From contig JBCBZJ010000004.1 of the NCBI GenBank assembly GCA_039815375.1, positions 192,920-256,919 on the forward strand: DNA of 64,000 bases. The letters run 5' to 3'. Made by a program: the position numbers. Within the stretch, counting starts at the first letter, position 1. Each line of letters begins with the position of its first letter. Origin of the DNA: Verrucomicrobiota bacterium (GTDB lineage Bacteria; Verrucomicrobiota; Verrucomicrobiia; Opitutales; Coraliomargaritaceae). Positions 24,001 through 36,000 of the stretch are shown piece by piece.

Positions 24001-27000
24001 CTAGAGCCCACATATAGAATGCCACCCAGCACACCAAACAAGACCGTCGCCAGAGGCACACCGGCATTCCACCAGCGAAAGGGAGTTCCTGCCGGTGGCT
24101 CGAGCCGCTCAGGATTTTCTCGAAGCAATGGCCTTGCATCCGGCGCAACCACTTGTCCTGTCTCTCGGGCTCTGCGCTCGGCTTTAAGCATCGGGCCGAA
24201 ATCGCGTCGCGTCATGATGTTAATGATTAGGAAGATCAAGGTGCCCCAACAGTAAAAACGCACCGGAAGCATTTGCACAAAAACAGCGTAGCCTCCCGTC
24301 TCCATTCCCAAGGACTGTACCGTCGAGCCCAAGAGCCAGACCTCGTAAGCGATCCAACTGGAAATCACGGCAAGACCGGCAATCGGCGCCGTCGTTGAAT
24401 CAACGATGTAGGCCAACTTCTCCCGAGAAATTTTGAAGCGGTCCGTCAAGCTCCGCATGGTTTGCCCAACCACAATAGTGTTCGAATAGTCGTCGAAGAA
24501 AATCATCAACCCAGCCCCGAATGTGGCAATCTTCGCAGAGCGGGCACTCCGCGCGATCCTGCTGAAGACAACGACCAATCCTTGAATGCCGCCGCTCTTG
24601 TAAAGCACATGGACCATACCGACGAGAGCGAAGAGGAAACCGAAAATATAAAGAGAGAACTGGCCCGTCACATTAGCCCAAAGAAAGTCCCTCACCGAAC
24701 TAGGCACAAAAACCAGCGGGTTGAAACCGAAATTCAAAACCGCCCCGGTAAGAAAGGCGCAACTCAAGGCAGCCACCAGTGAACGGAATGAGATCGCCAG
24801 AACCACGGCAACCAAAGGTGGCATAAGCGATGACCAATGCCCCTGGTCGCCACCGGCTGACTCCGGCAAGGGGCCCGTCGGCAAAAATTCCAGAATGAGA
24901 CAAATCAGCGCCAATGAAGTAAGGCATGCGATCCAGCGCACGGGTTGTCTCCAAAGGTTAGTTCTCGAATTTGCCATCTTTACAACTTTCCCTCAACCGG
25001 CACTTCACGAGTGCGACAAATAACGGCATCCTTGAACTCTGGATAGTCCGAGCAGAGCGTCTCGCGTTCCCCGAGCTCGAAGTCAGACCACTCGAAACCA
25101 GGGACCATCATACAACTCCCGAAGAAGAATCCAGCCTCACCAGCCACCAGCTTGGTGCCCTGCCAACTGCCCATCGGCGTGGTCAGTTGCAACTTCTCAC
25201 CGGCCTCAAGATTGGATCCGATCCTGAGCAGCTCGCCACGACCATTCTCATGCAGAAGTAGCATCTCGGCAGAATCGCCAAGGTGATGGAACCAATGCTC
25301 CGCTGTCGGAAGGCGATGCATCGCTGAAAATGAATCTGCTGTCAGCAGGAAGTAGATCAATGTGCCCATAGGATGGTCACCTTTTTCGGGATAGCGCGAA
25401 CACAGCTCGCTATTCCGGACTCTTAAACCACTCCGCCATACCTGACGGAAGTAGCCACCTTCCTGATCGAGCGGTTCCAAGCCGTAGTGCTCGATAATGG
25501 CCTCTGCTGTCAGCATACGGGCACTATTCAGCCATCAGCTCATCGAGCAAGGCAAAGAGCACAGCAGCCCCGCCGCGGGACGCCTTCACATCATAGATAT
25601 TCTCATCATTCTTACCTTCCTGGCCACCTGCCAAATCACTCACCGCACGAATAATCACCCAGTCGATGTCGTTGATGTGACAGACCTGCCCGATTGCGGC
25701 CGATTCCATCTCTGTAACCTCTGCATTGAACACGTCACGTATCCATTTCCGGTATTCGCGGTTATCCACGAAAACTGATCCGGTCACACCATTACCTCCC
25801 ACCGTGATCGCAGCCATCCGCCCTGGTAGAACCTCGATCTCAGGCATGGATTGAATCGCTGCAGCAGTCGCTTCGAGCAAGCGAGGCGTAGCAGAAAAGT
25901 AAGCAGTCTCTTTGGGCTCAGTCATGCCCTCTTTGATAATCAGCACGTCATCCGGGTGGATCATCCCAAAGGGTTTGTAATTGGGAATGTTGGGATCTTT
26001 TGCTCGGCGTGCGTCCTTTCGACTGAGAAAGCCCTCGTAATAATCCGGCTCGATAAATTCACCCGTTTCATTCGGGTCGGGATTCACATAGACGCTCTCA
26101 TCGTGATAATACCATCGGGCCGGCACAGTCACGTCGCCCGGCTGCAGTTGTGGATTCACCGCGCCCGCGATTCCCATATAGATCACTTCTTTGATCGGAA
26201 AATAGTCGAAGGCCATCTGCATACTCATCGCAGCATTCGCGATACTCATGCCGGTAGCAAAAACGATCACCGGCTCACCCTGATAGGTGCCGATTCGATA
26301 ACGAACTCCCTTGATCGCGAAAACCTCACCCATCTCCGCATTTGGGTTCGCATCGATTGCTTCGACCAGAGCGATCATCTCCGGCTCGTAGGCCACCACA
26401 ATCGCAGTCAAAGGTTCGGCATCAAAGGTCCGGGGACCGTAGGCTGTTTCCGTTGTAGCACATCCAGAAAACCAGACGACGGTAACAGTTATCAGAAGTG
26501 AAATAGTCTTATGCATTTTTCTTATTTTTTAATTCGTATGCCCATACGCAGAGTCTTCGAGTCGACCTCGCCCGGGTAAGCGTAATTCTCCATCTCGGGA
26601 GGACTGGTTATCTCGTAATCGTATCCAGAAAGCAAATACCCAAGAATCAAAGGCATCTGGATGCGAACCAAGTTCATCCCGATGCAGGTATGCGACCCAC
26701 CACCAAAAGTGCCGTGTGCATTTCTCGGGTAGTTGTGATCCAACCAGCGGCCAGGATTAAAAACAAAAGGTTCCTCATAGATCGAATTGTCGAAGTGCAT
26801 CAGACTCGCCAGATGCAGGCAGTTTGTTCCTGCGCCTATCGGATAGCCGAGAAATTCAATGTCCTGGGCAGGCACTCGCGGTAGAACCGGAGCCGCCGGA
26901 AACATGCGCTCCGTTTCAAGCAAGGTCGCTTTAAGCAGCGGGAAATGCTTCATTCCTTCGGCCAGCCTATGAGCATCAAAGTCACCAATTTCTTCGCGCA

Positions 27001-33000: not shown

Positions 33001-36000
33001 ATCCAAAGCCCTGTAGCCTCTACAACATTTCGGGATTTTACGATCCACTGCTGGACTTCATCGATCACCTCGTCGCAACCGGTTTCGTGAAGCAAGCGCA
33101 TGCAGACAAACTAATCGTGGAAAGCGATTCCAAGTGCCTCATTACACGCCTGCAAAATTACCGGCATCAAACTATCAGCAAGCTCACTGGCGCGGTGATC
33201 GAGTAAACGCATCATGAATGAATCAAAAGCTATTCCAATCGTCGACATGGGCCCTTATCTCGAGGGCACATCCGGAGGCCGCGAACAAGTCGCCCGGGAA
33301 ATCTACAATGCCGCGCACAATGTCGGTTTCACCTACCTGAAGAACTTCGGTATGTCGGAAGATATGCTCGAAGCTGGCTTCGCGGTGGCCCATTCACTTT
33401 TCAACAGCGACGAGAAATTGAAGGTGCCCTTCAATCCTGAGATCAATCACGGCTACACTGGCATGAAAGGCGAAGCACTCGACCCGAGCAAGCCTGCCGA
33501 CCTCAAGGAAACCTTCACCTGCCGTGACTTGAGTCGCAAACCAAGCGGAGCAGACTACTGGCCCAACCCACAGTTTGAAGCCTTCATGCGCGTCTTCTAC
33601 GGACGCGTTGTTAAAATCGCATCCGACGTTATGGGTGCCTTTGAGCTCGCACTCGGCTTGCCCTCAGGCTACTTCGACGAACGTCATACCGGCCTGACTC
33701 AGACCCTCCGGCTGCTTCACTATCCGCCAGCCGAAGAAGTCGTCGAAGGTCAACTTGGCGCAGGTGCTCATACAGACTACGGCACAATTACCGTCCTCTT
33801 TCAGGATCAAGCCGGTGGCCTTCAAGTGCAAGGCCTCAACGGCGAGTGGATCGATGCGCCACCTGTACCCGGCACGGTTGTGATCAATACCGGCGACCTT
33901 ATCTCCCGCTGGAGCAATGATTTCTTTAAGTCTACACCACACCGTGTCGTCCCGCGCCCCGCAGCGATGAGAAAGGGACGCCAGTCGATTGCTTTCTTCA
34001 GCGACCCAGACCCGGAAGTCATGATCGAGACCTTCCCGAGCTGCATTACCGAAGAAGCACCTGCTAAATACAAGCCAATCAGCGCTGGCGAATATATCCG
34101 TGAGCGCATCATGGCCTCACAGGCAAAGTAGTCTAGCCTTTCAAGAGAGTCATTTCATGAAGTAAAGCATCCGAGTTTTGTATTGTTTTCAAACTAACGA
34201 GTAGTTAGCTCGGTATTTTGAATACTTAAATCTAAACGTATGTGGACTCTTACCAGTATCTCCTATGGGAGCTGTGCCGTTGATCGCTTTTATAACTGCG
34301 ACGGTAAGCCGCTCTTTAACTACACGCGCGGCGGCCTAAATAGCCCCAAAAGTCGGATCATGATTTCCGGATTCGGTTATATCGATATCCTCGACAACGT
34401 TACTCTGAACGAAACAAAATCAGAATACGAGGGCTTGATGATAGTTGTTAACGGTCTGAGCATTTGCTACGAGGTTGAGGCTTCCATCAGCTTTGTAGTC
34501 AATGAGGACGGAAGCTTCGCATTGACCGTAAACGACAGCCCTTATTCGGGCTCTGTCCACCGGCTTCCGAAATTAGAGGGCAAAACAGTCAATGCCTTCG
34601 ATCAAATGATAAGCAAAGGGATTGTCCCCTACCTTGATCCACCTCCACCCTGTGTTCAAAAGACAACCAAAGAGCTTCAGGCGCTTGCAGCGGCGAATTT
34701 TCCCAGCGACCCCTTAGGCTTTCAGAAAGCAATGTCGCTTTATGACTGGACCTCAGCCAGCTTCATCCGGCAGGATTTATTCAATCAACTTCAGTATACA
34801 AGCTTGGACGGCCATCCCCTCGACCTGAAGACAATGGCGCGCGTCATCTGGGGCTGTAACTACCCTGGCTACACTCATGAAGACGCCAATTTCATGAACA
34901 TGTTTGGCCTGACGCCACCAAGCAACGAAGCATCACTCTACCAAAGCCTTCAACGAATCTGGCCCGACCTGAAACCGCTGGCGATCGCTGAAATGTTGAT
35001 CTATACACAAGCCATACTGGATCTGCCATGGCCAACCGTTAAGGAATACCCGAAACTCTATCGCGGTGCGATGTCGATGTCGGGTGGCTACAACACCAGC
35101 GATTTCTCGCCGAGCATGTTCGAGTTCCCCGGCAATGCAGGCCCGATTGATCAACCCCTCGTGCAGAGCCTTGACGATGCTTTAAAGGGAATCCTGGCGC
35201 CAGGCTCGATCATCACCACCAAAGGCCCATGGAGCTTTTCCAACGATAAAGCCGGCGCTGAGGTTTGGCAGAATGGCATTCTTGTTACCTTGAATCCACC
35301 CCAAGGTGCAACTCACTGGCCGGGCTGCGCGGATATCACAACTTTCTCTATCAATCCCGGCACCTTTGAAATCGATATGCCACCGCCCTGCCGTTATCAT
35401 GTCGACTCTTACGAGTGGATCACCATCAAGGAAAAACCAGTCTGCCATATCACAATGACTCTACTCGGTTATTGCGCCGAACCTATGATTGACTAAACGG
35501 AAACTCGCAAAACGTTAGGTGACATGCGCCGCTCGGTGCGACTATGGAAACCAACATAAAGATCCTTGTGACTGATGACGAACCGGAGAACCTGCGAATC
35601 GTCGGACAGACCTTAAAGCGGGACGGCTTGCAGTTTATCTTTGCAACGAATGGGAAAGATGCGATCGAAGCTGCAATAAATGAACAGCCCAGCCTCATCC
35701 TGCTAGACATCATGATGCCTGCAATGGACGGCATCGAAACCTGCCGTCGGCTAAAGAGCCAACAGAAGACTTCAGATATTCCGGTTATTTTCCTAAGTGC
35801 GAAATCGCAGAACCAAGATATCCTCGAAGGCTTCGGTGCCGGTGGAGTTGACTATATTACTAAACCATTTTTCCGGGAAGAGCTTCTCTCGAGAATTCAC
35901 ACCCACCTGAAGCTCTACAATGCCAACCAGCAACTCAATGCCTTGATTGAGCAGAAGCGAGAACTCCTTGCAATGCTTGCTCACGATGTAAAGAACCCAT

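What a model noticed while it worked through the whole genome (the two positions that open the first line are those of the whole stretch)
24980..34131. Cytochrome P450 family embedded in purine-nucleoside salvage operons
g02161 (and g03118, C63:52678-54045) belong to a P450 family that sits in purine or nucleoside uptake, phosphorylase and deaminase operons across Verrucomicrobiota. Both operons are under sigma54 motifs. The family likely oxidises or N-dealkylates modified purines to free their nitrogen.
Evidence so far: Here g02161 lies between a xanthine permease and a nucleoside phosphorylase, and g03118 follows an adenosine deaminase. In 24 of 32 distinct genomes the homolog is next to such a gene (6 of these only an NMT1-type binding protein); 5 more have a phosphoribosyltransferase nearby and 3 have none. 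One homolog carries P450 and nucleoside-deaminase domains in one chain (P0015, call 52). The I-helix lacks the usual acid residue: AGTGNT in 35 of 64 homologs. Sigma54 motifs head both operons. The genome has at least 7 nucleobase loci, including an NdmA-like Rieske oxygenase.
(Added by a program. Inside this text positions count along the whole contig: contig position 192,920 is position 1 of the stretch shown here. "Call 12" and the like, gene names such as g00115 and contig names such as C1 are that model's own, and its searches are not shown. The text may have been shortened before it was handed on; [...] marks where a part breaks off. The agent that wrote the report below was given it as the finding of a first reader that could run no searches.)

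Follow-up and report, generated by a model that had tools for sequence, protein, structure and literature searches.

The report
P450 enzymes in nucleobase-scavenging operons
An uncharacterised branch of cytochrome P450 enzymes with an unusual active-site helix sits, in one order of bacteria, among genes that import and break down nucleosides under a nitrogen-type promoter, which suggests it strips chemical marks from modified DNA/RNA bases so that their nitrogen can be used; the substrate is still unknown.

Summary
The core observation holds. g02161 is an intact P450 between an NCS2 permease and a secreted MTA/SAH-nucleosidase-like hydrolase (not a phosphorylase). Among 53 family copies from 31 genomes or records, 28 directly adjoin a nucleobase-salvage gene, against about 1% for an average gene of this genome. 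The link recurs in subfamilies only 21-43% identical. All 26 P450-positive genomes of 401 in the order carry an AzgA-like permease, against 14 of 375 negatives. A sigma54-type GG-N10-GC site 11-13 nt before the permease start is conserved in 12 of 12 aligned loci, and similar sites precede glnA, amt and a nitrate-type transporter gene. Corrections: (1) within the phylum sample the family is confined to one order (Opitutales); a gammaproteobacterial-type branch lacks the context. (2) The P0015 'fusion' holds only 49 of 156 deaminase residues: a relic. (3) The I-helix loses the catalytic Thr (to Asn), not just the acid; this Gly-Asn pair matches prostacyclin synthase. (4) g03118 is about 30% identical, a separate subfamily. 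Best reading: a cytoplasmic oxygenase that dealkylates or hydroxylates imported modified bases under nitrogen limitation (about 55%). No substrate or expression data.

The parts
23202..24977 (-).
   Evidence: PF03553; 2 bp from the cupin; same position in L008, L009, L054, L079, L082-L085
24980..25516 (-). DUF985 cupin
   Evidence: PF06172; PDB relatives are uncharacterised proteins
25524..26516 (-). Secreted (lipoprotein signal) MTA/SAH-nucleosidase-like hydrolase; co-inherited with the P450 in subfamilies A, A2, D
   Evidence: PF01048; best NCBIfam and PDB hits are MTA/SAH nucleosidases, below cut-off; lipobox FSGC; 35-40% identity to the A2 and D counterparts
26522..27841 (-). Cytochrome P450 g02161 (subfamily A), 439 aa, no signal peptide seen
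27062..27079 (-). I-helix motif AGTGNT (residues 255-260): Gly258-Asn259 at the acid-alcohol positions
   Evidence: register from alignment to CYP120A1 AGHETL and from sister subfamilies AGAENT / AGxDNT
27843..29189 (-). NCS2 (xanthine/uracil-type) nucleobase permease, first gene of the operon
   Evidence: PF00860; TIGR00801 298.5 bits over cut-off 291.8
29201..29216 (-). Sigma54-type -24/-12 site (GG-N10-GC), 11 nt before the permease start codon; implies a leaderless transcript (inferred)
   Evidence: core invariant in 12 of 12 aligned loci; 9 of 9 NCS2 genes at 10-12 nt
29247..29262 (+). Divergent sigma54-like site with GT at -12, 10 nt before an ATG at 29273
   Evidence: recurs in L006, L007, L081, L084, L086
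29261..30043 (+). Cytoplasmic nucleosidase-like protein (probable start 29273)
   Evidence: PF01048; MTAN-like below cut-off
30047..31684 (+). AzgA/NCS2-like permease without a Pfam hit
   Evidence: Atlas neighbours named NCS2/AGZA permease, score 0.98-0.99, automatic names, a lead only; present in 26 of 26 P450-positive genomes
31693..32295 (+). Hypoxanthine phosphoribosyltransferase-like protein
   Evidence: PF00156; TIGR01203 E 1.5e-28, below cut-off
32553..32568 (+). Sigma54-type site 53 nt before the LOG gene
   Evidence: conservation not tested
32622..33206 (+). LOG-family nucleotide phosphoribohydrolase
   Evidence: TIGR00730 over cut-off, PF03641
33214..34131 (+). 2-oxoglutarate/Fe(II) dioxygenase, closest solved relative fungal thymine dioxygenase
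   Evidence: PF03171 + PF14226; 5C3P E 6.8e-54

Best explanation
g02161 and its Opitutales paralogs are cytoplasmic oxygenases of a nitrogen-regulated nucleoside-scavenging system. Secreted nucleosidases cut nucleosides in the periplasm and NCS2/AzgA permeases import the free bases. The P450 hydroxylates an alkyl substituent of a modified base (for example an N-methyl or N6-alkyl purine, or a methylated pyrimidine). The carbinolamine falls apart to the plain base plus an aldehyde, and the base enters HPRT salvage or the deaminase / xanthine dehydrogenase route to ammonia. Different subfamilies likely take different modified bases, alongside the genome's NdmA-like Rieske and thymine-dioxygenase-like enzymes. 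Electrons come from unlinked ferredoxins or flavoproteins. SHOWN: gene order, controls, co-occurrence, conserved promoter site, fold, I-helix residues. INFERRED: transcription by sigma54, nitrogen control, periplasmic cleavage, free base as substrate, dealkylation chemistry, electron donors.
For: Adjacency 28 of 53 copies vs 33 of 3066 genes (1.1%) in G000. Unrelated P450 loci: 1 of 47 with a hit, a weak generic oxidoreductase; a Pfam scan of 130 of their 169 representative ORFs showed no salvage family. The link occurs in subfamilies A (10 of 10), A2 (3 of 3), D (5 of 7), C (9 of 19) and B (1 of 7), which are 21-43% identical to each other. The P450-nucleosidase pair is kept at 35-40% identity. 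26 of 26 vs 14 of 375 for the AzgA-like permease. GG-N10-GC site 10-12 nt before the start in 9 of 9 NCS2 genes vs 1 of 369 unrelated neighbour genes. In G000 similar sites precede glnA, amt, a nitrate-type binding protein gene, the Rieske oxygenase and many salvage genes; RpoN and 3 activator-domain proteins are present. Several copies without salvage neighbours still carry the site on the P450 gene itself (L031, L039, L041). P450-adjacent nucleosidases show N-terminal signal-like stretches, a lipobox match in 9 of 17, so the cytoplasm should receive bases. Other base-oxidising enzyme types sit in the same loci. Aldo-keto reductase, aldehyde dehydrogenase and acyl-CoA ligase neighbours of subfamily C could take up a released aldehyde.
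Against: No substrate, activity or expression data. No redox partner in any conserved position; a CysJ-type flavoprotein is divergent in 1 of 53 loci only. The catalytic Thr is replaced by Asn in 34 of 53 copies, so ordinary O2 activation is not assured. 21 of 53 copies have no salvage gene within three ORFs, including 6 of 7 subfamily B copies (behind EF-G) and 5 of 7 E copies. The gammaproteobacterial-type branch with the same Gly-Asn motif sits behind an MFS gene in 10 of 11 loci with no adjacent permease, nucleosidase or deaminase. No glutathione-dependent formaldehyde dehydrogenase over cut-off in G000. The site also precedes genes unrelated to nitrogen, such as dnaK. The genomes are kin, and salvage genes were defined from the same loci.
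Confidence: 0.55

Rival explanations
1. Same scavenging system, but the P450 acts on the sugar or the intact nucleoside: O-demethylation of 2'-O-methyl ribose, or oxidation at the 5' group of 5'-deoxy or 5'-methylthio nucleosides.
For: Neighbours resemble MTA/SAH nucleosidases, MTA phosphorylases and SAM hydrolases. Sugar-handling neighbours occur (RbsD/FucU, fuconolactonase-like, aldo-keto reductase). Oxidative 2'-O-demethylation of free nucleosides is known for 2OG enzymes (PMC12709175) and sugar O-demethylation for marine P450s (PMC6292453).
Against: The co-transcribed transporter is a nucleobase permease and the nucleosidase is secreted. Sugar oxidation yields no nitrogen by itself. CYP236A keeps the Asp-Thr pair and was not among the listed closest structures.
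Confidence: 0.18
2. The Gly-Asn enzymes are not NAD(P)H-dependent monooxygenases. They use H2O2 or a substrate peroxide (peroxygenase, or a self-sufficient peroxide-cleaving enzyme) on a nucleobase or on a peroxide formed in base oxidation. This rival concerns chemistry and shares the pathway context.
For: Gly-Asn at the acid-alcohol positions is the arrangement of prostacyclin synthase (ATQGN287, PMC13049297). No linked redox partner. Non-canonical pairs mark peroxygenases in CYP255 (PMC11842817).
Against: Subfamily C keeps Thr and D/E keep the acid. The genome has a 2Fe-2S ferredoxin, a second small ferredoxin and three CysJ-like flavoproteins. The NdmA-like Rieske oxygenase also lacks a linked reductase. 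From recall, not from a call: CYP7A1, CYP8B1 and P450cin carry Asn here and are normal monooxygenases.
Confidence: 0.15
3. The P450s act on some other nitrogenous or xenobiotic compound, and their place among salvage genes reflects shared nitrogen regulation and inheritance of a few ancestral islands.
For: Copies without salvage neighbours (21 of 53); different context outside the order; two genomes keep the salvage island without the P450 (L148, L149); genomes are related.
Against: Tight operon position between permease and nucleosidase in 10 of 10 A loci; different salvage partners in different subfamilies; strict nesting within permease-positive genomes.
Confidence: 0.12

Closest known systems
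CYP120A1, CYP204A3 (9WAT) and CYP51 (closest solved P450s)
   Same: P450 fold, Z 32-33, heme Cys and ExxR
   Different: 18-23% structural identity; the shown alignments have the canonical AGHET motif; substrates are retinoids/sterols by the entry titles for CYP120A1 and CYP51; no nucleobase context known to me
Prostacyclin synthase CYP8A1
   Same: Gly-Asn at the acid-alcohol positions (ATQGN287; PMC13049297 passages)
   Different: Eukaryotic endoperoxide isomerase; not among the closest hits listed; shared motif only
Methylxanthine N-demethylases NdmA/NdmB (Rieske)
   Same: Proposed job: oxidative N-demethylation of purines for catabolism (function from the PDB names, and recall)
   Different: Non-heme Rieske fold; the genome encodes its own separate homolog
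Thymine 7-hydroxylase and PHYHD1/FJS (2OG oxygenases on free bases or nucleosides)
   Same: Oxidative removal of methyl marks from free nucleic-acid building blocks (PMC12709175); a thymine-dioxygenase-like gene is in this locus
   Different: Different fold and cofactor; 'P450' does not occur in that paper's main text
CYP236A (6-O-methylgalactose demethylase of marine bacteria)
   Same: Catabolic P450 on a polar substrate embedded in a utilisation cluster (PMC6292453 passages)
   Different: Keeps Asp-Thr; sugar substrate; carbon rather than nitrogen pathway
CYP735A, CYP1A2 and cyclodipeptide-nucleobase coupling P450s (recalled, no call)
   Same: P450s known to act on purine-containing molecules
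   Different: Biosynthetic or xenobiotic roles, not bacterial base scavenging; relationship not tested

Membership tests
Cytochrome P450 superfamily | P450 fold | tested here: met
   pLDDT 91.4; Z 32.9, rmsd 3.2-3.6, over 400 aligned to CYP51 and CYP120A1
Cytochrome P450 superfamily | FxxGxxxCxG heme ligand and ExxR | tested here: met
   C386, E309, R312 in 105 of 105 aligned homologs
Canonical P450 monooxygenases | I-helix acid-alcohol pair (D/E-T/S) | tested here: not met
   G-N 20, T-T 19, D-N 7, E-N 7 of 53 genomic copies; none has the full pair. Some distant representatives do have E-T or E-S
Canonical P450 monooxygenases | Linked or fused redox partner | tested here: inconclusive
   None conserved nearby; unlinked ferredoxins and flavoproteins exist; longer fused forms were not searched by word index
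Named CYP families (CYP120, CYP51, CYP204, CYP152, CYP170) | Over 40% identity (naming rule, recalled) or curated cut-off | tested here: not met
   All NCBIfam P450 models far below cut-off; listed PDB matches at 14-23% identity
One CYP family holding both g02161 and g03118 | Over 40% identity (naming rule, recalled) | tested here: not met
   28-31%; A vs C 25-32%
One clade holding both g02161 and g03118 | One side of a branch against the nearest other P450s | tested here: met
   SH-aLRT 99, quick tree of 34 chosen rows, no bootstrap; score gap
Self-sufficient peroxide-using P450s (CYP8A1, CYP74, CYP152, CYP255) | Turnover without NAD(P)H and redox partner | not testable with these tools
   Only the Gly-Asn motif is shared with CYP8A1
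P450-deaminase fusion protein (P0015) | Two complete domains in one chain | tested here: not met
   Deaminase residues 41-89 of 156 only; last ~30 P450 residues missing
Sigma54 (Ntr-type) regulon | Conserved GG-N10-GC upstream, RpoN and activators present | tested here: met
Sigma54 (Ntr-type) regulon | RpoN-dependent transcription, induction by nitrogen limitation | not testable with these tools
   no RNA holder listed, which is no evidence either way

The most novel reading that the evidence does not exclude
A multi-subfamily P450 clade has radiated in Opitutales as a toolkit of erasers for modified nucleobases (the waste of RNA/DNA turnover), each subfamily taking a different mark, and the Gly-Asn members do so without a dedicated redox chain, using peroxide from purine oxidation. 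This would be a bacterial P450 pathway in primary nucleobase catabolism with prostacyclin-synthase-like distal chemistry.
Probability: 0.13. Interest if true: 0.88.

Novelty: new variant of a known kind. Interest (0 to 1): 0.62.

Why it matters
The breakdown of modified nucleosides in bacteria is poorly mapped; PMC12709175 (abstract, introduction) says so for 2'-O-methyl nucleosides. Known oxidative erasers of free modified bases that I found are Rieske or 2OG enzymes. A P450 clade dedicated to this would add a third enzyme class and a nitrogen source for aquatic Opitutales. It also gives soluble P450s with polar heterocyclic substrates and a natural series of I-helix variants (G-N, E-N, D-N, T-T) for studying oxygen activation. 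The hypothesis is cheap to test: one soluble protein and a purchasable substrate panel. DUF1152, with no paper in the library, gains a pathway context.

Tried and rejected
P0015 fusion: rejected as a two-domain enzyme. It is seen in 4 near-identical Logan sequences on 15 contigs in all, so a real deletion or a repeated misassembly; the DNA could not be read. 'Bacteroidetes' record L009 as a second phylum: rejected, 90.7% DNA identity over 13.3 kb to L008. Plasmid search with P0141: no match at 1e-25. DUF1152 fold: single-sequence model failed (pLDDT 40) and was not used; profile against PDB found nothing. PhyH neighbour of the gammaproteobacterial-type branch as a PHYHD1-type demethylase: the one tested (L068) hit only other PhyH-like enzymes weakly. 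RNA evidence: no RNA holder listed. Earlier scan findings: none returned. Literature: searches listed no paper on bacterial P450s in nucleobase salvage, judged from titles and abstract starts; searches returned none. The library lacks most subscription papers, so this does not show absence from print. No supplements were read. Active-site geometry and docking were not possible because model coordinates are not provided.
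Full report
THE LOCUS. The minus strand carries one operon: NCS2 permease (27843-29189), P450 g02161 (26522-27841), a nucleosidase-like lipoprotein (25524-26516), a DUF985 cupin and an NhaC-type antiporter, with gaps of 1-7 bp. Divergent from it lie a cytoplasmic nucleosidase-like gene, an AzgA/NCS2-like permease (Atlas lead), an HPRT-like gene, a LOG-family gene and a 2OG/Fe(II) oxygenase whose best solved relative is thymine dioxygenase. The gene after the P450 belongs to the phosphorylase superfamily by Pfam, but its best NCBIfam and PDB matches are MTA/SAH nucleosidases and it has a lipoprotein signal. 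The genome has three P450s: this one, g03118 on C63, and an unrelated one with a canonical GHET motif on C11.

THE FAMILY. A profile search of 1.84 billion representatives gave about 40 full-length clusters at E below 1e-72 and then mainly fragments and generic P450s. A quick tree of 34 chosen rows puts 26 family rows, g03118's branch included, on one side of a branch (SH-aLRT 99). Subfamilies are 21-43% identical to each other, so by the usual 40% rule (recalled) they are several CYP families in one clade. Distribution: 26 of 401 genomes of the window's order. In 401 phylum-wide genomes the 6 strong matches were all in that order. The order is taken to be Opitutales from the titles of the closest named records. 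Named proteins outside it include Chthoniobacterales and Gammaproteobacteria. The 'Bacteroidetes' record is 90.7% identical in DNA to a Puniceicoccaceae record and is probably mis-binned.

NEIGHBOURHOOD TEST. I fetched about 9 kb each side of every match, clustered the ORFs and named cluster representatives and single neighbours with Pfam/NCBIfam. Four loci fetched twice and the unrelated C11 P450 were left out of the count; split genes were merged. NMT1 binding proteins and PRTases were not counted as salvage genes. Of 53 copies, 28 adjoin a salvage gene, 32 have one within three ORFs, 36 within 5 kb. By subfamily (adjacent): A 10/10, A2 3/3, B 1/7, C 9/19, D 5/7, E 0/7. 24 of 31 genomes or records have an adjacent copy. 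Base rate in G000, using BLAST homologs of the same clusters: 33 of 3066 adjacent, 87 of 3066 within three. 47 loci of other P450s from the metagenome scan gave 1 weak generic hit among 217 neighbour ORFs; many of these contigs are short. Kin are not independent, but the partners differ between subfamilies (nucleosidase, adenosine deaminase, adenine deaminase, NUP), and the P450-nucleosidase pair is kept across A, A2 and D at 35-40% identity.

PRESENCE PROFILE. In the same 401 genomes the AzgA-like permease is in 26 of 26 P450-positive and 14 of 375 P450-negative genomes. One of the 14 (G196) has a P450 cut by a contig end beside the permease. DUF1152 is in 20 of 401; 17 of these have the P450, and 16 of 18 genomes with subfamily C have DUF1152. 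Two genomes keep the island without the P450 (L148, L149).

AGAINST. Six of seven B copies sit behind EF-G and four E copies among housekeeping genes. The gammaproteobacterial-type branch (L060-L070), sister to subfamily A in the tree with modest support (86), follows an MFS gene in 10 of 11 loci. Five have a convergent uridine kinase-family gene, and none has an adjacent permease, nucleosidase or deaminase. So the function may not be uniform across the clade. L074 does show amidohydrolases, a xanthine permease and an NMT1 protein upstream; its origin is not given.

PROMOTER. TGGTA-N7-TGCT is invariant in 12 of 12 aligned loci upstream of the NCS2 gene while the flanks diverge. It ends 11-12 nt before the start codon in 9 of 9 genome loci, against 1 of 369 unrelated neighbour genes. 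In G000 the spacing histogram peaks at 11 nt (11 hits against 0-6 at other spacings). With strict and relaxed patterns the genes include nucleoside hydrolase, PNP, deaminases, NUP, LOG, permeases, the NdmA-like oxygenase and a nitrate-type binding protein, but also unrelated genes such as dnaK; glnA and amt carry the site further upstream. The spacing implies leaderless transcripts (inference). On C63 a site faces the deaminase-P450 operon 70 nt upstream and another, conserved in 3 of 3 aligned loci, faces the ABC/DUF1152/AKR operon. Three E copies without salvage neighbours carry the site 10-11 nt before the P450 start (L031, L039, L041, relaxed pattern). B copies show a terminator-like hairpin and a degenerate site after EF-G, seen by eye only. 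The sigma54 consensus itself is recalled.

ACTIVE SITE. AGTGNT aligns with AGHETL of CYP120A1; subfamilies with AGAENT and AGxDNT fix the register. The acid-alcohol pair is G-N in 20, E-N in 7, D-N in 7 and T-T in 19 of 53 copies. The common thread of g02161's branch is therefore Asn for Thr. PMC13049297 (passages seen) gives the same G-N in prostacyclin synthase and links Asn there to peroxide scission. PMC11842817 (passages) shows another non-canonical pair working as a peroxygenase. From recall, several ordinary monooxygenases also have Asn here, so the motif does not decide the chemistry. Conserved polar residues (H91, T93, Q94, E174, E175, Y250, N259) fall in regions that line the pocket in other P450s, which fits a polar substrate; this is alignment-based inference without coordinates.

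THE FUSION. P0015 is 87% identical to P0009 over residues 1-415, then matches residues 41-89 of the 156-aa deaminase that lies two genes downstream in L005, and stops. It is a deletion or assembly relic. It only shows that the deaminase was nearby.

ELECTRONS. No redox gene is conserved near the P450. G000 has a 2Fe-2S ferredoxin, a second small ferredoxin and three CysJ-like flavoproteins elsewhere.

MECHANISM AND VERDICT. The simplest reading: nitrogen-limited cells cleave nucleosides outside the cytoplasm, import bases, strip substituents with several oxygenases (P450s, Rieske, 2OG) and feed plain bases to salvage or to the deaminase, xanthine dehydrogenase and reductive pyrimidine genes present in G000. 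I put the tie to nucleobase/nucleoside scavenging at about 0.85 and oxidative dealkylation or hydroxylation of a free modified base at about 0.55. Comparable erasers are in print for 2OG enzymes (PMC12709175: abstract, introduction and passages seen) and catabolic P450s on polar substrates for CYP236A (PMC6292453, passages). My searches listed no P450 in this role (titles and abstract starts only). A new variant of a known kind, directly testable, interest 0.62.

Noticed in passing
G000 genome-wide and loci L004-L057; window 29201-29216, 42539-42554: Sigma54-type sites end 10-13 nt before start codons of many salvage genes, implying a leaderless sigma54 regulon in Opitutales; a library search for sigma54 + leaderless + Verrucomicrobi found no paper.
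   Followed up: partly
window 40199-43513: Second cluster with such sites 6 kb downstream: esterase, MATE-like transporter and adenosine deaminase-family gene; a MATE gene is divergent from the NCS2 gene in L008, L009, L054.
   Followed up: partly
L057:4870-5889 (G000 C63:48769-49788) and 13 other loci: DUF1152 with an aldo-keto reductase tracks subfamily C (16 of 18 genomes); conserved GGGGD, VDIGSD and GxDGE motifs suggest an enzyme of nucleoside catabolism; no structure or paper found.
   Followed up: partly
L140:9821-10867 (G000 C37:31820-32866): NdmA-like Rieske oxygenase without a linked reductase, next to nucleoside hydrolase, phosphorylase and deaminase genes.
   Followed up: partly
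window 33214-34131: Bacterial protein closest to fungal thymine dioxygenase (E 6.8e-54), also in L008, L009, L012.
   Followed up: partly
G000 C63:51575-51643: A 22-codon ORF starts 11 nt after the sigma54-like site and ends over the adenosine deaminase start region; possible leader peptide.
   Followed up: no
L005:13360-15587, L045:2-1360, L074:4781-8318: NMT1-type binding proteins, some joined to or flanked by a cytochrome c-like domain, near the P450.
   Followed up: no
L009: Record titled Bacteroidetes is 90.7% identical over 13.3 kb to a Puniceicoccaceae record; probably a mis-binned contig.
   Followed up: yes
L028, L040, L052: Three family copies are split by a stop or frame change; pseudogenes or assembly errors.
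   Followed up: no
L058:1-10754 (G000 C11): The third, unrelated P450 lies with a flavin monooxygenase, a KAS III-like gene and a radical SAM / AIR synthase-like cluster.
   Followed up: no
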